NCBI GenBank assembly: GCA_964016885.1
Contig: OZ024748.1
Location: forward strand, 10,416,001-10,480,000
Source: Eledone cirrhosa
Lineage: Eukaryota
Direction: 5' to 3'
Length of the DNA stretch: 64,000 nucleotides
Both the position numbers and the translations under genes were made by a program. This document shows positions 1-64,000 of the stretch, in pieces. The notes beneath the pieces were generated by a model that saw only the letters and a program-made list of their open reading frames with translations, made no database searches and was not told the origin of the DNA. Position 1 is the first letter of the stretch. The number at the start of each line of letters is the position of its first letter.

Positions 1-2173
1 TGAACTCCTCTGTTATAGCCTGAAGGGCAATAATAAATAAGAGGGGGCTAAGGACAGAGCCTTGATGAACGCTAACTTTTACACTAAATTCTTCACACTA
101 TTCATTGTTAATTCTAACCTTACTGACTGTTTCATTATACATAGCTTGTATAGCTCTCACAAGCCATTCATCTACACCTAGTTTTCTAAGAGCCCACCAG
201 ATAATGGAGCAGGGGACTCTGTCAAAAGCTTTCTCCAGGTCTACAAAAGCTAAGTAGAGGGGTTTACTTTTAGCTAGGTACTTCTCTTGTAGTTGTCGTA
301 CAAGTAAAAGAGCGTCTGTGGTACTTTAACCTGACACAAACCCAAACTGCATTTCATCTAGATCAATTTGCTCTCTGATTAGTTGCGCTATAACTCTTTC
401 TGTGACCTTCATGACCTGGTCAACTAACTTAGTGCCTCTATAGTTTCCCCTATCTAGAGCATCCCCTTTACCCTTGTAGCAGTTAATGATGATGCTGCTA
501 CGCCAGTCTTTTGGTATGACCCGATTCTGTATTACTTGGTTAACTATACGGGTGACCATAGTGTGTCCCACCATACCAGATGCCTTCAACATCTCAGCAA
601 CTATCTCCGAAGGCCCAGCTGCCTTGCCTGTCTTCATATCTTTGATTGCTTTACTTATTATACTACCTTTAACTTGCACCACTGGTCCTTCTATTGGATC
701 GATTTGGGGCAGACTATCTTTTTCCCATTTATTCTCCTCATTTAATAGTCTCTCGTAGTGACACTTCCAGGCTATCTTCTTATTAGTATCAGTGAGCGCA
801 AGTACAGCATTATCATTACGGACACACTTCTCCCCGACAATATCACGGTTTTCCTTGACACATTGTCTAGCAATCCTGAACACCTCACGTTTTTGGTCCT
901 CACGTTGTAGAACATGCTTGAACTTTCTATCCTCTGCTACCCTTTATGCAAGGTACACTTGTCTCCTAGTTTCTCTCCTGCCCACTTGATAGTGCTCTCT
1001 ACTTCCCCCATCCTGCCATACTTTCCAAGCCTGCTTTTTGGCCTTGATTGTCTCTTCTACCTTACTGTTCCACCACCAAGTTACTCTCCTCCTGCCAAAA
1101 GGTCTGCTCCAGCCACAGATTTCATCCGTTGCTTTCAGCAGGTTCACTTTCAAGAATTGCCACTGTTCCTCTATATCGCACGTCTCTAATTGCTCTTCCT
1201 TATTGTCAAAGGCATCAAGTAATAAGATTTTAAATTTGTCACTGGCTATGGGGTCCTTCAACTTCCATATTCTTCTCCTCTGTCGTCGAGTACGTCTATT
1301 CCTGACTACTAGGCTATATGGGGAGGTGTATTCTTCACGGGGGAGGGATTTAGTGTTTACAACAGACATTTTGTCCCGTCTTCTAGTAAGGATATAATCT
1401 ATCTGGCTGGCGTGTTCCCTTGATCTATAGGTGATCAAGTGGTTTTCACGTTTTTTGAAGTTTGTGTTACAGATAGTTAGGCTATTTGTGTCACAGAATT
1501 CCAGGATTCTGAAACCCTCCTCATTTCTATTTCCAACCCCATAGCCTCCATGGATTCCATCATCGCCATCACTATGTTGTTCAACGTAACCGTTTAGATC
1601 GCCAGTAATAATTAAGTAGTCACTGTCGGTTATTTGGGAGGTAGTGTGCATTAGCATCTCATAGAACCTGTCCTTTATAACATCAGGTAGACCAGATTGG
1701 GGTGCATAAGCAGATATTATTGTCACAGTAGTTCTATTTAGAACTAGTCTTAATTCAATTATTCTGTCATTCACTCTGTTTACGTAAATTACCTTATCTA
1801 CCCATTTTTCAGCTAACATAATTCCTACACTACCCTGTCCGCTGTCATTTCTCACCCAGAAAAGTTTATAGCATCGTTTTTTACCCACGATGAATCTGGC
1901 AGACCCCCCTCTCCACTTAGTCTCTTGAATACAACAAACATCAACTTCTTTACGTTCAAGAATCTCTACAACCTCATTTGAGCGACCTTTCAATGTGCCT
2001 ACGTTCATGGTACCAACTCTGAAGTCGGAAGGGTGGGATGGATGGGCTGGAGGGGCAGGGAGGGGTGTGGGAGACGGGATTTTGTTGGTCATCTGTGTCT
2101 GAAATAAAGAGGGGTCCTTATATTCTCGTCTTGCAGCGGGAGGTGAATTTATCTTTATCTGTGACATAGTCAT
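1..2173 (-). mobile_element. RTE-clade LINE, APE endonuclease + N-terminal reverse transcriptase, inactivated by two in-frame stops; continues beyond window start
   Basis: APE motifs (GTMNVGTL, CIQETKW, SAYAPQ, GDLNG, QIDYIL) in ORF 944-2173. The same frame continues past TAA at 944-946 into RT (KAAGPS, YKGKGD..NYRG, QFGF) and past TAA at 326-328 (TTDALLL..LQEK..FVDLEKAFD..QGSVLSPLL). Closely similar to the copy at 62044-64000. Confidence 0.93.
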
Positions 2174-2367
2174 TGAGTGCTTACACTTTTCAAATCTCCG
2201 CAGTCAACCCATCTAACAGGTCTAAACTTAAGGAGTAGTAACCGGAGTGGTAGCTTTGCTATACTGATTTGTTAGAGAACTTACTAAAGCCGCTGAGTTA
2301 TGATTGGACCATATAGCAATGGTGGTGTGTGGGGGTGGGATGGCAGGAAATGGGTGACTTTAGGAGA

Positions 2368-5115: not shown

Positions 5116-5443
5116 GGAGGCACATGGCTTAGTGGTTGGAGCATTGGCCTTGCAATCGAAAGGTTGTGAGTTCAATTCTCAGACCGGGTGATGTGTTGTT
5201 TCCTTGAGCAAGACACTTTATTTCACATTGCTTCAGTTTACTCAGCTGTAGAAATGAGATGATAGGGACTGGGTTCCCTATCATTCCACTGCGAAGTGGA
5301 CATGTAGGCGCCACGGCAAAAAAGCACCCAGCACTCACTGTAAATGAGGTTGGTGTTAGGAAGGGCATCCAGCTGTAGAAATCAAGCCAGAATCAGTTCC
5401 CGTCCCACCCTTGCAAGCAGGGAAAAGCGGACATAAAATGAAA

Positions 5444-9015: not shown

Positions 9016-9115
9016 TATATATATATATATATATATATAAACCGTGTATAAAAATATAACATAAATTCATTTAACACAACTGAAACTGGATTTTAGTCTT
9101 CAAATTTATTATTAT

Positions 9116-9188
<73 letters not shown>

Positions 9189-9333
9189 ATATTCGTATAC
9201 AGATATTTTTGCATACACAGTAACAACATATAAACAAACGCATTTATTTGACGAGGCTCGATAAGGATAAATATATATCAAATATATAAGAACCCTAGAG
9301 CAAATCCCGAGCAATGCCGGGCCATTCTGCTAG
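9016..9333 (+). mobile_element. 3' part of a non-autonomous Helitron (same family as 18022-18852)
   Basis: accctagagcaaatcccgagcaatgccgggccattctg-CTAG|T, nearly identical to 18811-18853. 5' boundary uncertain. Confidence 0.7.
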
Positions 9334-9715
9334 TCTAACATATGTACATGATCTTTACTTTGTGGACTTGCATAATTGCTGATAGTTATATTACATTGAT
9401 CTTATTCATATCTTGATATCACTTAAGTGGATACCTCCATTTGTAATTCAATTCTTTATCATCATCATTGTTTAATGTCCAGTTTCGCTGCTAGCAAGGG
9501 TTGGACGGGTCTTTATATATATACCTAGTGTGGGCACATGTGTTTGTTTGTATGCATGTGTGTGTGTGTGTTTGTATGTATGCATGCACATGTTTGTATG
9601 CATGCGCGTGTGTGTATGCATGTGTGTGCATACACACACACACACATATATATACACACATATATATACATACACACACACATATATATATATATATACA
9701 CACACATATATATGT

Positions 9716-9754
<39 letters not shown>

Positions 9755-9757
9755 TGT

Positions 9758-9823
<66 letters not shown>

Positions 9824-10243
9824 CTATATATATATAAATCTATATATATATAAATCACTGGGAGAGATGACCCCTCAGCCTTTGTCAAGGCAGAATTCTA
9901 GGAGAAGGAAAACTCTGATATAACACCTGCAACTCTGATGGTATCCAATGATGTTGACTTGTTCTTCTTTTTGGTAAATATCATCTTGGTTAAGAGAGTG
10001 GGACTGGCTTTGTGCAGTGCCTTTGCTCACTATAAAAGCTTCACGGCACAGGCATTGCTTTATATCTGGAGATCTCTCTGCACTTGTCGTCACATGGTAC
10101 CATGGGCCTAGCACTGTGTCAATAATTGTCACAGGTGTAGTGTTTGTACCAGAGTTTGTCACAGGTGTAGTGTTTATACCAGAGTATATATATATATATA
10201 TACGATATTAAACAAATGGAAACTATATTTATAAAACCATATT

Positions 10244-10309
10244 TATTTCATTATACATATTTCAGGGATACCATATTAAAAATATGGCATGCCTTCGTCA
10301 GATAAAATA
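10244..10309 (-). ncRNA. Minimal type-I hammerhead ribozyme motif (mirror copy in the palindrome)
   Basis: Exact reverse complement of 10447-10512. Confidence 0.78.
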
Positions 10310-10446
10310 CAATATATAAACAGTTTTATAAATAATTTTGACGTACCATAATATGAGCGACCATTAAATTAGGAGGCAGCCTCCTAATTTAATGGTCGTT
10401 CATATTATGGTACGTCAAAATTATTTATAAAACTGTTTATATATTG

Positions 10447-10512
10447 TATTTTATCTGACGAAGGCATGCCATATTTTTAATATGGTATCCCTGAAATATG
10501 TATAATGAAATA
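10447..10512 (+). ncRNA. Minimal type-I hammerhead ribozyme motif
   Basis: TATTTTAT - CTGACGA - stem II AGGCATGCCATATT/TTT/AATATGGTATCCCT - GAAA - T ATGT A - TA (AUA cleavage triplet) - ATGAAATA (pairs with 5' stem I). Confidence 0.8.
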
Positions 10513-10640
10513 AATATGGTTTTATAAATATAGTTTCCATTTGTTTAATATCGTATATCTACTCCAAAAACTTGTCGAGTGCTTTATATCAGTTATAAAA
10601 TATTTACTTGTTGTAACCCAACAATTTTAAATAAAACTTT

Positions 10641-20515: not shown

Positions 20516-20904
20516 TGGTGTGTGTGTATATATATATATACACAGTCTACAAAAGACACTGAATTTATTTCAGCAATTTCCAACCATGACCCACTCACTC
20601 AATGAGATAATAAGCCTGGAGTTGTGAAACTACATCTTAAAATAAATTTTCATGTTAAATATCATGTCACATAATATTGAATCTACAAAGTTTTGATGTT
20701 ATTTATTTTGAGAACAATACAACATTGTTGCAAGCATTCTACAGGAATGTTTCCCTAAGTCGGTTCCTATATATATAATGTAGGAGGTGAGTTTTATTGT
20801 AGCAATGTTGATTTTTGTAACAATGTTGATTTTATTGTAGCACATATGTTGATTTAACACTTCACTGCTCGCAAGTGTTTTTTAAGCTTCATATCATGTC
20901 TCCC

Positions 20905-20975
20905 TATTTTATCTGATGAGAACGCAAATATCATCCCATGATGATATTTGTTTTTGAAATGCGCATAATAAAATA
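20905..20975 (+). ncRNA. Minimal type-I hammerhead ribozyme motif
   Basis: TATTTTAT-CTGATGA-GAACGCAAATATCATC/CCAT/GATGATATTTGTTTTT-GAAA-T GCGC A-TA-ATAAAATA. Perfect 8-bp stem I and palindromic stem III. Confidence 0.8.
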
Positions 20976-22500
20976 CGGTTTGAGTTCAAATCCCGTTGAG
21001 GTTAACTTTGCCTTTCATCCTTACGGGGTCGATAAAATAAAGTACCAGTAATACACTGGAGTAATTGCTGGCCTTGTGCCAAAAGTAGAAACAATTATTA
21101 TTATTTCTTTGGCAGTATCGGTAGAGGGTTGGACGCCATGCTTTCTAGCATAGTTACGTCCCTTTACAGTCTGAGTTCAAATCCCGCTGAGGTTAACTTT
21201 GCTTTTCATCCTTATGGGGTCGATAAAATAAAGTACCAGTAATGTACTGATTAATTGCTGGCCTTGTGCCTAAAGTAGAAACAATTATTTCTTTTGTTAC
21301 ACAGTGTAGATGGAAAATGCACTGGAGTATTTATTTAATTATACGTCAAGTCGCAACAAAGACATCAGATCAGATAATGCTTTCTTTTAAATGTGTGCAG
21401 TGCCTAGCAAGGCGGATTGTTTGTATGACACCAATCTTGCATGCTATTCTCAACCGCTTTAAGAAGTCTTGCAGTTTCAATGGGATTGGCCCTAATGCCC
21501 CAATCACAACTGCTATCACTTTTACATTACTCTCATCCCTTCCAAACAGTTTTGCCATCTCTACTTTCAATTATTGGCAGAATCGGTAGGGCATCGCACG
21601 ACGTGTTTTGTGGCATAGAGTTCAAATCCCGCCGAGGTTAACTTTGCCTTTCATCCTTATGGGGTTGATAAAATGAAGCACCAGTAACATACTGGAGTCG
21701 ATTTAATTGATTTCCCTTCCCCCCAAATTACTGGCCTTGTGCCTATACTAGAAATCATTATTATTATTGGTGCTGATTACAATGGAGTGCCTACTCTTTT
21801 GCTTTAGTATCGGTAGAGGGTCGGACGCCATGCTTTCCAGCATAGTTACGTCCCTTTACGATCTGAGTTCAAATCCCGCCGAGGTTAACTTTGCCTTTCA
21901 TCCTTACGGGGTCGATAAAATAAAGTACCAGTAATGCACTGGGTAATTGCTGGCCTTGTGCCTAAAGTAGAAACAATTATTATTATTGGTGTTGATCACA
22001 ATGGAGTGCCTACTCTTTTGCTTTTTGGTGGAAGGGACACGTTCCAATGATCAGACAGTTCATCTGCTGTTAACAACTGCTACGTGGAGGACTTGGTGCG
22101 CCATGGCCTATGATACACAAATAGGCACTGAGTCTACATCAACAGTGCTTCCTTAATGGTGAACAGATGTGGTCACCATTTCACCAACTTCTCTCCTTGA
22201 CAGAGCTGCAGTCTTGGGTCAAGCAAAGACCATCAAATGCTCATAACCCTCAACTAGTTGGGCACTGCAATCAGTAGAAAATACACCTTGGCATTCTATA
22301 GAGGGTTAGGGCTGTCAATGAAAATCAATTAGCCACTCTTTTCTGGAGAACTTCCAGAAATCCTTGGTGTGGCAGTGCTATTGGGAAACATTGTTAGTTT
22401 GATATAAACCCTACAGACATCATAATGCTGGCAGCTGGTCCTGTCCAAGATGTATGCAGGGCAACAAAACTGTCCTGCATGCACATGTTCAGTCATGAAG

Positions 22501-22775: not shown

Positions 22776-23369
22776 ATCATATTTTTCAATCATATTTTAT
22801 TATTTGTTTGACCTGAATAGCTTGCTCGCTTCTATGGCTTTGCAGTTAATGGTTTAACCATTGCTTCAGTGTGTTTGACCTTTTAACGTATGTTTATTGC
22901 TCTAGTTCACTCGCTTCTATTGAGCGCTTGCCACACATTTCGGAAGTTATTTTTCGCTAATTTCCAATAGCCGAAATGCGATTCTCGCTAATTTATATTT
23001 GTATATATATATATATTTGCATGTTATTCTATGTACTATACATGCACCTTTGACGAGTTGTAGTGCACCTGAGCACTTTACACGATAATTACATTATTAT
23101 TCTTGACTTTGCCTTTCATCCTTACGGGGTCGATAAAATAAAGTACCAGTAATGCACTGGGTAATTGCTGGCCTTGTGTCTAAAGTAGAAACAATTATTA
23201 TATATGTATGAATGTAATATGATGCTTGTACATTTTATATAATCTGTCCATTGTATGGAGTCTATGTTTATGTATGTACAACAATTTCCTATTTTCTGTT
23301 GCTTTTCCTTTTGTATTTAAAATCCTAACAAGTTTGCCTGTGTTTAACTGGGTGGATTCTGTTGTTGAG

Positions 23370-23690
23370 ATAGAGGGGGGAGATGGAAAGCAGGAGGTGG
23401 AGAGAGAGGAGGGGGATAGATAGATAGAGAGATAGTGAGAGGGGGAGACATGGAGAGAGAGAGAAAAAGAGAGGCAGTGAGAGGGGGAGATTGAGAGACA
23501 GGAGAAAGGGGCCGGGAAGTGGAGAGGGTGAGAGAGAGAGAGCGAGCGAGCGTGTGTGTGATAGAGGGGGGAAATGGAAAGTAGGAGGTGGAGAGGGAGA
23601 GATAGAGAGAGAGGAGGGAGAGGGAGAGAGTGATAGAGAAAAGAAGACAAAATGAGAAAGAGTTAGAGAAAGAGAAATTTAGAGAAATTT
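23370..23690. repeat. Purine-rich (GA) low-complexity tract
   Basis: About 320 bp almost entirely G/A on the + strand. Confidence 0.85.
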
Positions 23691-23835
23691 AATGCAATTT
23701 AGCCCATCTACACACACACACACTACATTCACTACACACACACAGTTCACAGATTTCTCAACTAATTATATATCATTTGTTTTGTTCATTTCTTGTATTA
23801 TTTTCTCTTCTCCAACAGACACCATACTCCAGAAA

Positions 23836-25551
23836 ATGTTGCAGCATCTACTGATCATCACTTGGCTATTTGGTGCCACATTAACAACGATGGTAGCAGC
23901 ATCAGATATTGTGAAATATTCACCAGATAGTTCACAACTGAGATGTTTTGACTTCAACATGACCAATGAAATATCCCTTGAGAACTGTTCACTTGGCAAT
24001 GTTACCTCTCTTCAATTGTCTCACAATAATATCTCCTCTGTTTCACTTGTTAATGACAGCGTGCTTCAAATATATATCACCTCGCAAAACCATCTCAGTT
24101 TCAACTTAGATTCAATGGTCAATTTTCAAGAGTTAGATATATCCCACAACTTGTTGACAGATATTCCATACAGTTTGCTCGTTCATCAGACATGGAAAAA
24201 ACTAGATTTTTCTTTCAATAGAATCGTTAACATCACAAAACCTCTTGTAACAAACTGCCAAAGTCTACATCTACAGAGTAACAAAATACAGCAATTGTCT
24301 GATGGGATTTTCCAAGACTGTCCATACCTGGAAGAACTGGATTTGTCTGACAACAATTTACAGCAGATAAATCTGAAAACATTTGACAATCTAAAAAATC
24401 TTTCAACGTTAAATTTATCAAAAAATCAAATTCAGACAGTTGATGGCTCTTTGTCACTTTCAAAACTTGAACGTTTGGATCTCTCTCAAAATTCAATCCC
24501 AACTATCTCAGAAACCACATTTAGTGGAGCACCATTATCCCTAGGTGAACTTAACCTCAGCCATAACAAATTCACTAAGATTCCATCTGGAGTTTTCACC
24601 AAACTTTTATCACTGAAAAATATTTCTCTACAAGGGAACAATATGACAAAATTTATAAACTCTCTCCAGTTGCCATACCATTTAGAAAAGCTTGACTTGA
24701 GTAACTGTTCTCTCGAGAAAATAGATCAGTGCACATTTCGAATTCTGAAAGACATCCAAGATTTTAACCTCATGCACAACTCACTGTTATGTAACTGTGA
24801 TTTGTTGTCAATCAGAAATACATTTGGTTCTTCAGTTCACATCGATACCTGCAGGAATTCGAGCAAAGAGGGCAACAAAATAAAGATTAAAAATTTGAAA
24901 CTGAAATGCAAGTTTCAAATTTGCAAGGACAGGAATTTTCTGAATGTTGACTCTGATAGTTCTTCCAACTTAAATGTCAGTGCTGAAGTGGAGAAAGGTC
25001 GGGTGAGAATAACATGGATGACAAGTCTGGTTGTCAACAGATTCTATGTTTCGATCAAAGATTCCTCGCAGAAGCAGATAGAGGATGTCCAATTGAGGTA
25101 TGAACACGAGTACTCCTTTGACTCAGAATCCGCATTCAGCACCTACCACATATGTGTTGACGCACTCAACAATGATAATGATGCCATTTCGAAAAAGTGC
25201 ATCAAAGTCTTCATAAAGGATGCCAACATGATTACGGGGATTGTGGCAGGGTTAATAGCACTGATACCTTGTGTTTTCGGATTGATTTACATCACATGTA
25301 AAGATCGACACTATGATAGAATAGATGGTAAAATACACAGCTGTGCAATACCAGAGGTGAAAGTTCCTCTTCCAGAAAGTAATGACAAGAAAACACCAGC
25401 TAAATTGGCACCAGTCAAAGAGAAGCACAATAAGGCATTCCAACCAGATGATGACAAGCCCACCTTGAATCATCAAAATCTAGAGAAACCACCTCACACC
25501 AGTATAGAAATTCCAGCAAATGCTAACAACTCCCAGTGTACGAATCTCTAA
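23836..25551 (+). CDS. Leucine-rich-repeat, FN3-like single-pass membrane protein (571 aa, single coding exon)
   Basis: Acceptor ttttctcttctccaacAG at 23817-23818 precedes ATG 23836. Signal peptide MLQHLLIITWLFGATLTTMVAA, ~10-11 LxxLxLxxN repeats, LRRCT (NSLLCNCDL), FN3-like segment, TM ITGIVAGLIALIPCVFGLIYITC, ~85-aa tail with no TIR domain. Confidence 0.9.
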   Translation: MLQHLLIITWLFGATLTTMVAASDIVKYSPDSSQLRCFDFNMTNEISLENCSLGNVTSLQLSHNNISSVSLVNDSVLQIYITSQNHLSFNLDSMVNFQELDISHNLLTDIPYSLLVHQTWKKLDFSFNRIVNITKPLVTNCQSLHLQSNKIQQLSDGIFQDCPYLEELDLSDNNLQQINLKTFDNLKNLSTLNLSKNQIQTVDGSLSLSKLERLDLSQNSIPTISETTFSGAPLSLGELNLSHNKFTKIPSGVFTKLLSLKNISLQGNNMTKFINSLQLPYHLEKLDLSNCSLEKIDQCTFRILKDIQDFNLMHNSLLCNCDLLSIRNTFGSSVHIDTCRNSSKEGNKIKIKNLKLKCKFQICKDRNFLNVDSDSSSNLNVSAEVEKGRVRITWMTSLVVNRFYVSIKDSSQKQIEDVQLRYEHEYSFDSESAFSTYHICVDALNNDNDAISKKCIKVFIKDANMITGIVAGLIALIPCVFGLIYITCKDRHYDRIDGKIHSCAIPEVKVPLPESNDKKTPAKLAPVKEKHNKAFQPDDDKPTLNHQNLEKPPHTSIEIPANANNSQCTNL

Positions 25552-27645: not shown

Positions 27646-45785
<18,140 letters not shown>

Positions 45786-46491
45786 CTTTACGCAACAGAT
45801 GAGTATGGAAAGTTTAGTTTGTCGATAGCTTAGATAAATATATTAGTTTTAAAACTAGTCGTCAGATACAGGAACTAGGAACTTTCTCAAACAGATCGGT
45901 AAAATGGGATTTTGTGACGTTCACACTTTCACTAAGGACATGAGCAACGTTAATGAAATGATTTATACTACAACTGAGTCAAAGAATCGTCTCGCCGGGA
46001 ACTGCCACTTCTTAAATCTGCGGCGTTCGGCGAAGGTTTTATATAAATTAATAGACAATAGTGGACAAAACAACACAAAATTGTGATTACACGGTTATAT
46101 CTGACGGTGAAAATCAAGTCATTTTGAACAGTGAAAACATAGATACGTATAGATATTATTTCCAAACCTCTGATATCGAAGTTCTGTGGTGTTTTCTATC
46201 TAAAAAGCAAAACAGAAACATTCAAAACAACGACATGTCGCCATGTTTTCTGCTGTCTTCAGAAATTGTAAACACCGCTAATAGAGCTAGTGTTAGTTTC
46301 ATATTTTTATTATCATTATTGTAATTGCCATTAGAACTTTTTAAGCTGTCAAATCAAATTTAATAATAATTCCGCATAATAAAAAGTTAATAATCACAAT
46401 TAAAAATTATCTTTTTTTGCTTTCGTGATATACGAAAATAAATAGTTGTAAAACTTTTCACCATCGCCACGGAAATAGACAACGCGACAAA
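45786..46491. promoter_or_regulatory. Putative bidirectional promoter between DHX38 and LRRC69
   Basis: 706 bp between divergent ATGs, free of repeats and locally richer in CpG. Confidence 0.65.
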
Positions 46492-55800: not shown

Positions 55801-56904
55801 ACAATAGCATATTTATATGAACACAAAGTTATGAATAGCACCATAGCAACATCACATTTATACCATGGATATGATGAAACAATATCACATACTATGGATA
55901 CGAGGACAAGAGCTATATAGCCATACAACATTTATACTATAGGTGGACAGAATCTAAAAAGTCTAATATCTGTCTCAAGTCAATGCTTATCCCAGTATCA
56001 TGGTGTGAAGCAACTGACAATATAAGACTTCCCACATGGACAAGACACCAGTCCATTACAGGGTTAAACCCCGAGCTATAGCTGGTACTCATTTTCAGCT
56101 GAGTATACTGGAGCAATGTGAAATGAAGTGTTTTGCTCAAAAACACAACACACAACCCAGCCCAGGAAGCAAACCCACAATATTATGATCATAAGTCCAT
56201 CACCCTTACCACCACAAGACCATGGGCCTCATGGGTAGCCTAGTGGACAGAATCTAAACATAGCAATATCAGATTTAAACCATAGATAACAGGACAAGAA
56301 ATTTAATAAAACTAATTACAAACTAATTTCTTAATCAACTAAACTTCAATAAATAAATACATTGTACAACAGGGTTAAAACAAGAGCAACGTTAAATCTC
56401 AAACCTGGTAAAATAATATGACCAAATTTTTATTTTTTACTATGTACAAATTGTATTTCATTTTATATTTAAAAAAGGTATTGGAGTATGTCAATGCCAA
56501 AATTAATAACCTTGGCACCGACTTAGATTTAAAAGGCTAACCACTTTCTAAGTGTGTGTGTATATATATATATTTCCCCTCCATACACATGCACCCATGT
56601 GTGTGTTTGTGTCTGTGTGTGTATTATGACTCATACACTGTTCACTTTCCTGACATTTGTATATTATTCTATGTACTACACATGCATCTTTGATGAGTTG
56701 TAGTGCACCTGAGCACTGTACACAATAATTTTCATTATTATTATACATACATGAATTAACATAACCTCATAGAAAAGAGACAGCGAAAGAACAAAACAGG
56801 TGGTAGTGAAGCAGTGTTGGAAAAGACTTGACAACCCATACAAGAAAGGAAATATAGACATAAAAAGATGACGAAAAATACACACCACCACCATCATCAA
56901 TGTA

Positions 56905-57302
56905 TATATATTATGGTTAATGTCTTATAATATATATATATAAATATATTATGGTTAATGTCTTATAATATATATATATATAAATATATTATGGTTAATG
57001 TCTTATAATATATATATATATATAAATATATTATGGTTAATGTCTTATAATATATATATATATAAATATATTATGGTTAATGTCTTATAATATATATATA
57101 TATAAATATATTATGGTTAATGTCTTATAATATATATATATATATAAATATATTATGGTTAATGTCTTATAATATATATATATATAAATATATTATGGTT
57201 AATGTCTTATAATATATATATATAAATATATTATGGTTCATGTCTTATAATATATATATATAAATATATTATGGTTAATGTCTTATAATATATATATATA
57301 TA
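56905..57302. repeat. AT-rich ~38-42-bp minisatellite (~10-11 copies)
   Basis: atatattatggttaatgtcttataa(ta)n aa. Confidence 0.9.
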
Positions 57303-59605
57303 TTTTCATACAGATTAAAGAGTTAAGCAAACAATTTCTGCTTTTACTCTACATAGAGAGAGGAGAGACAGAGTTGCAGGTAACCAATACAACTACAATC
57401 ACAATAACACAAACTTAAGACATGACTAAAATATTAAATATTCTTCAAATTCTAAATTTTATTTTCTAGAAAATGACTTTTTTTTTCTTACTTTTTCGTT
57501 TTTAAATAAACATCATTTACACATACATTAAAAATATTTTGATATTTTGTACTTAGTCATGCAATATTAATGTTACTGATAATACTAATTAATGGTTTGG
57601 AATTTATGCACAAGGCCAGCAATTTAAGGGGTCGGAAAAGTTGACTGGTACTTTATTCTATAAACCCTAGGAGGAAAGGCAAAGTTTACCACAGCAGGAT
57701 TCAAACTCAATCATATCAAGCTGGAACAAACACCATGAAGTATTTTGTCCAGTATTCTACTGATTCCACACTCCAAAATTAATAACTGTTTCTACATTTG
57801 GCACAAGGCCAGAGGAGAAAGTCGATTAAATCGACCTCAGTGTGTCACTGGTACTTTATTTTATCAACCCGTAAGGATGAAAGGCAAAGCTCTGTGGGAT
57901 TTGAACTGAGAATGTAAAGAGCTGGAACTCTATGCTGCAAAGCATGTTGTCCGATGCTCTACCGATGTTGTCAATCTACCACCCTTTACACACTCCATAA
58001 CATTAACAATAATAACGGTTTCTACTTTATTTACAAGGCCAGCAATTTTGAAGCAGGTGAAAGTCTATTAAATCAATCCCTATATTTGTCTGGTGCAGTG
58101 GGTCTGCATCATAGCTTTCAATATATGCAGTTGGAAAATATATTTTTTAAATTGAGGAATGCTGAATAAGGGTCATGAATGTATGTGGTAAGGTTGGGGA
58201 ACCAACTAACCATGTTAAGATGAGGGGTTGCTGAACCTTATTTTATTAACCCCAGACTGATGAAAAGCAAACTTAATCTCGGCGGGATTTCAACTCAGAA
58301 TCTAAAGAGTTGGAACAAATACTGCAAGGTATTTTGTCTGATGCTCTAATGATTCTGCTAATCCCACAGACTCATTAACAATGGTTTCTACTTTAGGCAC
58401 AAGGTCAGCAATCTAGGGAAGCGATAAGTTGATTAAATTGACCCCAGTACTTGACTGGTACTTTATTTTATCAACCTCTGAAAGATGAAAAGCAGGATTT
58501 TAACTCAGAATGCCAAGGCCTCTTAACTAGATGCCTCTTTACCCGATGCATTAATAAACCTGTCTACCCACCACCCTAATAATAATAATTGTTTCTACTT
58601 GTGGCACAAGGCCAGCAATTACCCCAGTGCATTACTGGTGCTTTATTTTATCAACCCTGTAAGGATGAAAGGCAAAGTTAACCGTGGCGGAATTTGAATT
58701 CAGAACGTAAACAGCCTTAACTCTATGCTGCAAAGCACGGTGTCTGACGTTCTACAGATACTGCTAATTCACCCTGATAATAATAAGAATAATCTAACAT
58801 TGACACAAGGCCAGAAATTTAGGGGAGGGTGGGGAAAATCGATTGTTTCAACCCCAGAAGGATGAAAAATAAAGTTGGCAGTAGCAGGATTTGAACTCAG
58901 AACAAAGGAAGTTGTAACTCAATAATGCAAAGTATTTCATCTGATGCTCTACTGATTCTGCCAATCTATCACCCTCCTGATAATAATAATAATGATAATA
59001 ATAATTTCTGATTTAGGCACAAGGCCAACAATTTTTGAGAAAAGGAAAAGTCAATTAAATTGACCCTGAAAGGATGAAAGGCAAAGCTAACCTCGGCAAG
59101 ATTTGAACTCAGAACGCAAAGGGCCAAAACTCTATGTCGCAAAACATTAATCCGACACTCTACTGATACTGCCAATCCACCACCCGCTTGATGATAATAA
59201 TAATAATAACAACAATAATTTCTAACTTAAGAACGAGGACACAAATTTGGGTGAAGGTGTATAGTTGATTAAATCAACTCCTTGATTGGTATTTCATTTT
59301 ATTCTTCCCTGGGTGGGAAGAGGGAGGGGAGTGTGTTCCAAACCAAAGTCAACCTCTGGTAGATATCCCATTGGCAGTAAGACCAGAAATGTGTCAGGAT
59401 AGAGTCCATAGAACATTTAACTCGATTCACTGGTATATCACAAATATATACCCGAGTTGACCTATGATGAGATTGAATCCAGAACGTGGAGGGGTGAAAC
59501 TTTTGGTGTCTCACTTTACTGTTTATGACAACACACTCCCAACAACAGCAGCAACATTAACAATATTACTATTATTATTATCAATAATAATAATAATAAC
59601 CATTA

Positions 59606-61742: not shown

Positions 61743-64000
61743 TCATCATCATCATCATCACCGTTTTACGTCCGTTCTTCCACGCTAGCATGGGTTAGAC
61801 GGGTTGTCCTGTTGTGGGCAGTGTCTGGTCGGCTGACCATGCCTTGCTCATACAGGAACTGATCTGGCTTGATTTCTACAGCTGGATGCCCTTCCTAACA
61901 CCAACCTCATTTACAGTGAGTGCTGGGTGCTTTTTCGTGGCGCCTACACGTCCACTTTACAGTGTGGGCTGGGTGCTTTTTTGCCGTGGCACCTCCACGA
62001 CCACCTTGCGGTGGGGGGGGGGGGGGCATATTGTTTATATGCTTCAGCATGTACCCATGGGAGGTCGGGTACCCTGTATTACTGCGTGACGCCAGAAGTC
62101 ACGGTCGTGTGTCATTGACTTTGAGAGGTGTAGTTGGGTAAGGTCGGCTTTTATCACCTCATCCCAAGTCATCTTGGGTCTCCCCACTCCGCGGTTTCCA
62201 TCAACTTCTAGTGCTCTGCACCTTTTTATGCAGCTGTCATCCTTCATACGCATCACATGTCCATACCAGCGTAACCGCCTCTCCTGCACGCAGCATTTGA
62301 TTCCTCTTATGCTCAGTCTCTCTCTCAATTCATTTATGCTTTGTCGTTCACGTATATTACTGTTACACATCCATCGGAGCATGCAGGCTTCGTTTCTCTC
62401 TAATCTACGTAAGTCTTCCACCTTCAGCGCCCAGGTCTCACTACCATGCAACATCGCTGTTCGGATACACGCATCATACAGTCTGCCTTTCATTCTGAGG
62501 GAGAAGCCTTTTGCAGCTAGCAGTGGTAGTAGTTCCCTAAACTTCTTCCATCCCGTTCTTACCCTAGTTATTGTACTTTCTGAGCACCCACCTCCGTTGC
62601 TAATTCGGTCACCTAGGTAGCAGAAGCTGTCTACTGTTTCTACAGGGCCCTCCCAGAGATTGGTGGTACTTGTTTCCTGTGGCTGTTTGCTTGCTGTTTC
62701 AGCACAGCTGCTGCATGTGAATCCTACATTCTTAATTAAGCTTCCTGAGATCCCGCTACATCTCTTGTGTACCCATTGTTTGCATTTGGGGCAAAGAATG
62801 GAGTTCCTACCTACACCTTTCCTACATACTGAGCAAGGCCATTTCCCTGAGGGGATCTGGGTTCTGTTTTCTCGTCTACTTATAAGGACCTTAGTCTTTG
62901 TCATGTTGACTTTGAGGCCCTTTCTCTCTAGTCCCTGCTTCCAGGTTTGGAATTTATTCTCTAGTTCTACCATAGATTCAGCTATGAGTGCGAGGTCATC
63001 AGCATACAGGAGTTCCCATGGGCATCCGGTCTTAAACTCCTCCGTTATTGCCTGCAGGACTATGATGAACAGGAGAGGGCTAAGAACAGAGCCCTGGTGG
63101 ACCCCAACCTGTACGCTAAATTCCTCGCTATACTCATTGCCAATCCTAACTTTGCTGACTGCTCCCCTATACATGGCTTGTACCGCTTTCACAAGCCATT
63201 CATCTACTCCTAGTTTTCTAAGAGCCCACCAGATTACTGCACGTGGAACTCTGTCAAAGGCTTTCTCAAGGTCGACAAATGCCAAGTAGAGTGGCTTACT
63301 TTTAGCTAGGTACTTTTCCTGTAATTGCCTCACAAGGAAGAGCGCATCAGTGGTGCCTTTCCCTGGAACAAACCCAAATTGCATCTCGTCTATATTCACC
63401 CGGTCCCTAATCAGCTGTGCTATAACTCTTTCTGTTACTTTCATGACCTGGTCCATCAACTTTATACCTCTATAGTTTCCTCTATCTAGTGCATCGCCTT
63501 TACCTTTGTAGCAGTTGACAATGATGCTACTGCACCAATCTTTTGGTATGGCCCCCTCTAGTATTACCTGGTTAACGATACGTGTGGTTATAGTGTGACC
63601 TACAGACCCAGATGCCTTCAGCATCTCGGCAGCTATACCCGATGGACCGGTTGCCTTCCCTATCTTCATATCTCTGATTGCCTTACTTACTACGCTGCCG
63701 CTGACTTGTACTGCTGGTCCCTCTATAGGGTCTACGTGGGGTAGGGTCTCTTCTTCCCATGCATTCTCCTCATTTAGTAATCTATCATAATGACTCTTCC
63801 ATGCATCTTTCTTCTCAGCACTTGTGAGGGCAAGCTCACCTTTATCATTCCGGATACACTTCTCTCCAATGACATCACAACTATCTCTGACACACTGCCT
63901 CGCAATCTTGAATACCTCCTGTTTCTGGTCCTCACGTTGTAAAACATGCTTGAATTTTCTATCCTCTGCTTCCCTCCTAGCTAAGTATACTTGTCGCCTA
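61741..64000 (-). mobile_element. RTE-clade LINE with uninterrupted ORF (62044 to 63999, open to window end), 3' UTR and (GAT)n tail, inside a TOPBP1 intron
   Basis: RT motifs QFGF, FVDLEKAFD, GVHQGSVLSPLLF, YADD, YLG; PHD-like Cys/His insert; RLRWYGHV, GRPKMTW. I read no stop in frame from 63999 to 62047. Confidence 0.95.

What the first reader, a model, noticed from the sequence alone, without database searches (positions are those of the whole stretch)
20905..20975. Second hammerhead with the same stem I and a different stem II
Seen: same TATTTTAT-CUGAnGA start and AUA-AU(A/G)AAAUA end as the 10447 motif. Its unrelated ~16-bp stem II (one mismatch, two G-U pairs) still pairs, and stem III is palindromic (UGCGCA). 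Inference: conserved core and stem I with swapped but paired stem II is the covariation expected of a real ribozyme family, not a chance match.
Basis: partly seen in the sequence, partly recalled or inferred. Interest (0 to 1): 0.75.

Follow-up and report, generated by a model that had tools for sequence, protein, structure and literature searches.

The report
Hammerhead end of Hydra-type Penelope element
This is a real hammerhead-ribozyme fold, predicted to cut RNA only as a pair, left as the broken-off tail of a known kind of jumping gene (a Hydra-type Penelope element) whose relatives put over 50,000 such motifs in this genome; this one copy is likely inert.

Summary
The motif is there exactly as described (20905-20975): 8-bp stem I, intact core, stem II of 15 pairs plus one C.U mismatch, palindromic UGCGCA, AUA site. 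Its first 15 letters occur 51,825 times in the genome (control 259). Walking upstream from related copies leads to an 800-aa reverse transcriptase with a C-terminal GIY-YIG nuclease showing the Hydra-clade marks (DKT, CxCX5C, no CCHH, (TA)n targets); the hammerhead sits in the pseudo-LTR on both sides of this frame. The 10447 motif belongs to a sister Hydra family (47-59% amino-acid identity). Stem II is therefore not swapped but diverged in register: 7 of 9 pairs change on both sides across seven subfamilies, around a fixed C.Y mismatch. The window copy is a 134-nt, 5'-truncated end, joined to a scrap of an inverted arm, its outer end replaced by a SINE, antisense in an intron of a DHX38-like gene. 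Hammerheads in Hydra elements, an octopus one included, are published (PMC8557442); this family's motif is not in that paper's table. Earlier notes of this scan reported the same kind of element on other DNA of this genome. Cleavage is untested.

The parts
20768..20779 (.). short TA tract at the outer left end of the insertion (target microsatellite)
   Evidence: arms of related copies end in (TA)n
20780..20804 (-). last 25 nt of the element's 'tail', inverted: all that is left of the left arm
   Evidence: tail-end motif on the minus strand at 20791; loose end at 20802 continues as tail
20805..20842 (.). patchwork junction: short pieces from the inner ends of the two arms, alternating
   Evidence: the 10-nt start of the right arm recurs at 20805, 20823, 20846
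20843..20904 (+). last 62 nt of the element's 3' UTR / pseudo-LTR upstream of the hammerhead
   Evidence: 20843-20976 is 127-130 of 134 identical to ends of ORF-bearing copies
20905..20912 (+). hammerhead stem I, 5' strand
20913..20919 (+). core C3-A9 (CUGAUGA)
20920..20955 (+). stem II: 3 pairs, C.U mismatch, 12 pairs, 4-nt loop
20956..20967 (+). G12-A13-A14-A15.1, palindromic UGCGCA, U16.1-A17; predicted cut after 20967; 20959-20966 is an 8-nt self-complementary strand
   Evidence: homoduplex -10.5 kcal/mol
20968..20975 (+). hammerhead stem I, 3' strand
20977..21105 (+). 5'-truncated copy of an abundant SINE that replaces the element's normal 3' end; 3 letters at 20974-20976 fit both
   Evidence: I14-I18; missing end not found in the window; loose end at 20976
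10447..10512 (+). hammerhead of the sister Hydra family (right arm of an inverted pair, followed by its tail)
   Evidence: (I4)
10244..10309 (-). mirror copy of the 10447 hammerhead in the left arm
   Evidence: (I4: arms 10195-10377 and 10379-10561, 99%)

Best explanation
This is the type I hammerhead motif from the 3' pseudo-LTR of a Hydra-clade Penelope-like retrotransposon, stranded in a heavily 5'-truncated insertion, and it is predicted to cut RNA only when two copies pair through the 8-nt palindrome. Shown: the motif flanks an RT + GIY-YIG frame on both sides in full-length copies, 3.3-3.9 kb apart; copies end at two fixed places about 85 nt apart (short end, tail end) in (TA)n; back-to-back pairs nearly always join one end of each kind. 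Inferred: in a pLTR-ORF-pLTR transcript the two hammerheads would swap strands at stem III and cut after AUA, possibly helped by the element's protein; the enzyme likely nicks both strands of a TA tract and starts cDNA at the two RNA sites, and the two cDNAs are joined by end-joining. Here the tail-started cDNA left 25 nt, the other kept 62 nt upstream of the ribozyme and later lost its outer end to a SINE. This copy likely does nothing: it has no same-family partner nearby and the host pre-mRNA reads it antisense.
For: Genome count 51,825 vs 259. 75 of 92 sampled hits have the second half of the core and stem I; 67 of 75 have a self-complementary 6-mer. L215 holds hammerhead-ORF-hammerhead. 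Of 30 loci found by the protein alone, 24 have the hammerhead downstream and 11 upstream (10 in a pLTR position; L220 is probably a separate insertion); DKT in 26, CxCX5C in 27; 37 of 66 matches lie in open frames of 800+ codons. Window's own sub-branch: ORF upstream in 15 of 20 loci. 10447 family: ORF and hammerhead both in 18 of 20. Covariation. Forming stem III in one strand costs 3.5 kcal/mol; the two-strand duplex gains 10.5. Pairs: 19 of 21 classified are short+tail, 2 tail+tail, 0 short+short, p 8e-5. Literature: PMC4209133, PMC8557442, PMC11167929. Host gene on the minus strand on both sides.
Against: No cleavage was tested. The 10.1-11.1 pair is G.U here and A-U or G.U in all subfamilies, not the G-C called typical in PMC4209133, and PLE hammerheads cut weakly in vitro; in a Poseidon element cleavage was dispensable for insertion in vitro and no RNA reads ended at the site. 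The Hydra RWK motif reads RWI or RWT in this family. Pfam does not recognise the protein, and the Hydra assignment rests on motifs and a by-eye comparison with the paper's alignment, not on a tree. The covariation control keeps no account of relatedness and uses 8 rows that I chose. Three of 77 copies share a change at G12.
Confidence: 0.9

Rival explanations
1. The motif is a unit of a non-autonomous retrozyme (tandem non-coding hammerhead monomers that make circular RNA) rather than the end of a coding element.
For: Most copies are short and non-coding; retrozymes derive from PLE pLTRs (bioRxiv 10.64898/2026.07.22.740005); one locus shows a local head-to-tail repeat (L023).
Against: The window copy is single; longer copies run on upstream through a 1-kb UTR into an RT-EN frame with scattered 5' ends; pairs are back to back, not head to tail.
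Confidence: 0.04
2. This particular copy has been co-opted as a cis-acting ribozyme for the neighbouring plus-strand LRR gene or the host helicase gene.
For: Core and all stems are intact; an LRR open frame starts about 2.7 kb downstream on the same strand.
Against: It is 95-97% identical to ends of mobile copies, so intactness is youth; it needs a partner; its heteroduplex with the 10447 palindrome is only -1.6 kcal/mol; the DHX38-like pre-mRNA carries the antisense.
Confidence: 0.03
3. The paired stems are kept by DNA-level processes (hairpin or quasi-palindrome repair, protein binding to the DNA end) and the RNA never acts as a ribozyme.
For: The elements are rich in inverted structure; hammerhead cleavage was not needed for insertion in vitro in a related clade.
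Against: The catalytic boxes are unchanged in all seven subfamilies while stems vary; several subfamily-level pairs are G.U, which pair on this strand only; the 6-mer stays self-complementary through changes.
Confidence: 0.03

Closest known systems
Hydra clade of Penelope-like elements, incl. Hydra-1_Obim of Octopus bimaculoides (Craig et al. 2021, PMC8557442; passages, section 11, supplement parts 1-2 and search hits read)
   Same: Single RT + C-terminal GIY-YIG frame, DKT, CxCX5C linker, no CCHH, CxxC and CxH around the conserved E and N, (TA)n targets, hammerhead near the 3' end with a palindromic stem III and usually U before GAAA; inverted 5'-truncated arms and optional tail.
   Different: Different family: other hammerhead sequence (first 12 letters not in the supplement), unit 3.3-3.9 kb rather than under 3 kb, RWI/RWT/RWR for RWK, stem II of 10-15 pairs with a fixed C.Y mismatch rather than 3-7 pairs, tail about 85 nt rather than 30-40, and tens of thousands of copies.
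Dimer-type hammerheads of metazoan PLEs (Cervera and de la Pena 2014, PMC4209133; parts 1-2 of 4 read; Lunse et al. 2017 not held, known only from its title and the review PMC6765202)
   Same: Type I topology in pLTRs, short palindromic helix III, long helix II, many families per genome with compensatory changes, thousands of single truncated copies, some pairs on opposite strands.
   Different: No extra nucleotide after A9; R10.1-U11.1 in place of G10.1-C11.1; longer stem I (8 bp) that hardly varies between families.
Poseidon element of Anolis carolinensis (Frangieh et al. 2024, PMC11167929; parts 1-2 of 4 read)
   Same: Two fixed 3' ends defining a tail that runs on into the next unit; AT-rich target; hammerhead just upstream of the tail.
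   Different: Other clade; there the ORF starts inside the hammerhead, here the first Met lies 259-281 nt after its start.
Animal non-LTR retrozymes (bioRxiv 10.64898/2026.07.22.740005; parts 1-3 of 5 read)
   Same: Type I hammerhead related to PLE pLTRs.
   Different: Those are tandem non-coding units; this is a single truncated end of a coding element.

Membership tests
Type I hammerhead ribozyme | Core CUGANGA, GAAA and NUH in order | tested here: met
   core unchanged in 8 of 8 rows
Type I hammerhead ribozyme | Stems I and II pair, ends meet in stem I, covariation | tested here: met
   stem I itself shows only one-sided changes
Type I hammerhead ribozyme | Stem III formable (as dimer through a palindrome) | tested here: met
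   67 of 75 self-complementary; duplex -10.5 kcal/mol
Type I hammerhead ribozyme | G10.1-C11.1 pair typical of canonical motifs | tested here: not met
   G.U here; A-U or G.U in all seven subfamilies, paired in 70 of 74; many Hydra motifs in the paper's table also have U before GAA
Type I hammerhead ribozyme | Match to an Rfam hammerhead model | tested here: not met
   not a defining feature of catalysis
Type I hammerhead ribozyme | Self-cleavage after H17 | not testable with these tools
   needs an assay
Hydra-clade PLE | Single ORF, RT then C-terminal GIY-YIG | tested here: met
   YRDD in 29 of 30, GIY-YIG-like motif in 25 of 30; Pfam gave no hit
Hydra-clade PLE | DKT in place of DKG | tested here: met
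   26 of 30
Hydra-clade PLE | CxCX5C linker; no CCHH; CxxC and CxH flanking E and N | tested here: met
   CxCX5C 27 of 30; the rest read from the frame printed (my spacing pattern for CxxC..CxH was wrong and counted 0)
Hydra-clade PLE | N-terminal RWK motif | tested here: inconclusive
   RW kept, third residue I or T in 23 of 30, R in the sister family L125
Hydra-clade PLE | Hammerhead in pLTR, (TA)n targets, tail, inverted arms | tested here: met
Hydra-clade PLE | RT groups with Hydra in a tree | not tested
   published proteins could be read but not brought into the tools; compared by eye only
Non-LTR retrozyme | At least two tandem units each with a hammerhead, no protein | tested here: not met
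   single unit here; family tied to an ORF

The most novel reading that the evidence does not exclude
These Hydra families define a distinct hammerhead subtype: a nearly sequence-invariant 8-bp stem I and a fixed C.Y mismatch three pairs into a long stem II (unpaired in 73 of 74 copies) form a docking surface, either a new stem I-stem II tertiary contact or the site where the element's RT-EN protein binds and switches cleavage on. With dozens of open frames and thousands of two-armed insertions whose arms pair one short end with one tail end, the family would be a ready system to test what PLE hammerheads are for and how the inverted insertions arise.
Probability: 0.25. Interest if true: 0.5.

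Novelty: new member of a known kind. Interest (0 to 1): 0.22.

Why it matters
As a locus it is ordinary: one of tens of thousands of retroelement ends. As a family it adds an abundant, young Hydra-clade lineage with many open frames and at least seven hammerhead subfamilies that give a natural covariation series. The role of PLE hammerheads is still described as unclear (PMC8557442; PMC11167929), so the fixed C.Y mismatch, the invariant stem I and the short+tail pairing rule are concrete things to test.

Tried and rejected
Rfam: no hammerhead model hit in the window or the local stretch. GIY-YIG family search returned mostly elements with a CX4CxxC-type linker (Neptune-like, label from PMC8557442) and other hammerheads; none of 30 + 20 loci carried this motif as its own end, the one hit (L166) looks like a nested insertion. 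Pfam and PDB sequence searches do not recognise the Hydra protein. Protein atlas gave no result. Sequencing runs: no RNA holder listed, which says nothing on expression; contigs laid on the stretch show only that the repeat is present, none spans the locus, so presence or absence in other individuals is open. The element's missing 3' end was sought in the window and not found, so SINE insertion with deletion and later deletion cannot be told apart. No tRNA gene in the neighbouring SINEs. No helicase exon found between 1 and 27.7 kb among 79 minus-strand frames of 45+ aa (of 92 listed) or by motif; short exons may be missed. One search had a faulty pattern (0 rows) and was redone. Lunse et al. 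2017 is not held. Searches for an earlier description; the Octopus vulgaris repeat paper PMC13282606 has no mention of hammerhead, ribozyme or Hydra in its main text (term search only). Repbase, Dfam, subscription papers and the supplements of the bioRxiv preprint could not be seen and may already list this family.

Full report
Observation. The coordinates are exact. Stem I is 20905-20912 with 20968-20975, the core CUGAUGA 20913-20919, stem II 20920-20955, GAAA 20956-20959, UGCGCA 20960-20965 and U16.1-A17 at 20966-20967. Stem II has 3 pairs, a C.U mismatch and 12 more pairs, two of them G.U. The 10447 motif has the same frame and a mirror copy on the minus strand within a 183-nt inverted repeat (I4). 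A strict descriptor finds these 3 motifs and none in 100 shuffled windows. Stem II alone has z -5.8. Rfam has no hammerhead hit here.

Family size. The 15-letter start occurs 51,825 times in the 3.0-Gb genome against 259 for the reversed pattern. From the first 14 Mb of contig C1 (loci plus 40 fetched stretches) I took 92 distinct hits: 75 have GAAA-N6-UH and at least 6 of 8 stem I pairs, 17 do not; all 75 have UA at the site; 67 of 75 have a self-complementary 6-mer; 47 of 75 fold stem II better than 95% of 200 base shuffles, median z -2.45.

Covariation. I sorted 74 of the 75 (one with an 18-nt stem II dropped) into seven subfamilies by simple patterns. Counted inwards from the core, positions 1-3 and 5-10 pair in 597 of 666 cells (90%); slid by one or two, 43-56%. 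Position 4 pairs in 1 of 74: it is C.C, or C.U in the finding's subfamily. On an alignment of 8 representatives 7 of 9 stem II pairs change on both sides, score 0.464 against 0.263 +/- 0.031, 0 of 500 shuffles; stem I has 6 pairs that never vary and 2 with one-sided G.U changes; in the palindrome one pair changes on both sides and the innermost pair, which can form only between two strands, is U.G, C-G or U-A in 7 of 8. The control ignores relatedness, so it supports but does not prove. The five paired positions of stem II where the window differs from the majority of its nearest relatives all stay paired.

What carries it. Close copies end at two fixed places in (TA)n, a short end and a tail end about 85 nt further. 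Some run on upstream. [quoted passage not shown] L215 has hammerhead, tail, 5' UTR, ORF, about 900 nt of 3' UTR, hammerhead, short end, (TA)n: the tail is the start of the next unit, as in the pseudo-LTR model. With the protein as query, 37 of 66 listed matches lie in open frames of 800 codons or more; in the 30 fetched, the hammerhead is downstream in 24 and upstream in 11 (one of these, L220, probably a separate insertion), DKT is in 26, CxCX5C in 27, RW[IT] in 23; one locus gave no parsed frame. These are the marks given for the Hydra clade (PMC8557442 section 11), except RWK. By eye the protein follows the paper's Hydra alignment block by block and differs from Hydra-1_Obim; that element's hammerhead is another sequence. 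The window copy belongs to a sub-branch whose UTR search gave an ORF upstream in 15 of 20 loci, 71-91% identical to the first protein, with ends up to 130 of 134 identical to 20843-20976. The 10447 family has ORF and hammerhead in 18 of 20 loci, mostly 47-59% identical at protein level; a third subfamily flanks a further frame in L125.

Mechanism. Forming stem III within one strand raises the energy from -13.8 to -10.3 kcal/mol; the 8-nt strand pairs with a second copy at -10.5. Full-length copies hold two same-strand motifs 3.3-3.9 kb apart, so a read-through transcript could fold a dimer and cut after AUA. This follows the model in PMC4209133, which also reports low activity in vitro; in a Poseidon element the hammerhead cut only with the protein and was not needed for insertion, and the protein nicked and extended both DNA strands from two RNA start sites that define the tail (PMC11167929). 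Of 25 back-to-back pairs in my loci, 17 were scored short+tail automatically, 2 more by eye, 2 are tail+tail, none short+short; 4 were left out (3 look short+tail at their outer ends, 1 is tangled). 19 of 21 against 49% expected gives p 8e-5. It is inference.

This copy. From left: TA tract (20768-20779), 25 nt of inverted tail end (20780-20804), a patchwork of the two arms' inner ends (20805-20842; such templated patches are typical of polymerase-theta joining, recalled), 62 nt of UTR, the hammerhead, then a 5'-truncated SINE from 20977 in place of the normal end, which is nowhere in the window. DHX38-like helicase motifs (names recalled) lie on the minus strand from 37.3 to 27.7 kb, its N-terminus near 45.7 kb, and an OB_NTP_bind exon lies 26 kb beyond the window's start on the same strand (E 3.5e-4, over the cut-off). 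So the motif is antisense in that gene's intron. Its only same-strand neighbour is the 10447 motif, whose palindrome pairs with it at just -1.6 kcal/mol. Among 77 copies found without using the hammerhead, rare changes run at 0.4% in the core (4 of 924 cells) and 0.9% upstream (44 of 4711), too few to claim selection on inserted copies.

Novelty. Hammerheads in PLE pLTRs, in Hydra elements and in one octopus Hydra element are published. Six literature searches found no description of this family or of the fixed C.Y mismatch, but repeat databases were not available. Earlier notes of this scan describe the same kind of element elsewhere in this genome; none matched this sequence or place. Verdict: real, new member of a known kind, interest 0.22.

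Noticed in passing
window 45480-45842, 37305, 36957, 36273, 33186, 31718, 27738 (all minus); G000:C8:10389773-10389892 minus: Exons of a DHX38/PRP16-like DEAH helicase gene spanning most of the window and beyond (name recalled).
   Followed up: partly
window 23683-25551 +: Single 622-codon frame with leucine-rich repeats and a likely signal peptide and membrane segment, nested in the helicase intron on the opposite strand.
   Followed up: partly
L125:760-860, L215 minus 5290-5410, window 10560-10600: The tails of three subfamilies share a short ACTCCA...GAGTGCT hairpin-like motif just after the short end; a candidate for the enzyme's binding or start signal.
   Followed up: no
L161, L162, L174, L176: Neptune-like elements whose flanking hammerhead has the U3-A8 core variant and a CCGG palindrome.
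   Followed up: no
L005 minus 423; L175 minus 8298; L177 plus 9485: Further unrelated hammerhead types in the same genome.
   Followed up: no
L213 minus 416-1079; L215 minus 9058-9835; L165, L171, L039: More distant Hydra-like frames, 33-46% identical to this family's protein.
   Followed up: no
window 20977-21290, 21600-21990, 23105-23200 and about 19 copies on the other strand: Very abundant SINE with a B-box-like motif, often in short tandem runs (D8); it resembles Nin-domain SINEs (recalled).
   Followed up: no
window 28945-29812, 42541-42984, 56890-57371: Minisatellites with 28-, 48- and 40-nt periods.
   Followed up: no
window 326-2203 minus, 62090-63289: Broken LINE fragments with an AP endonuclease.
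   Followed up: no
window 20665-20725: A separate high-copy repeat just left of the insertion (depth).
   Followed up: no
L214:31-5312: A 5.3-kb imperfect palindrome (88%) that includes an ORF-bearing copy of this element.
   Followed up: no
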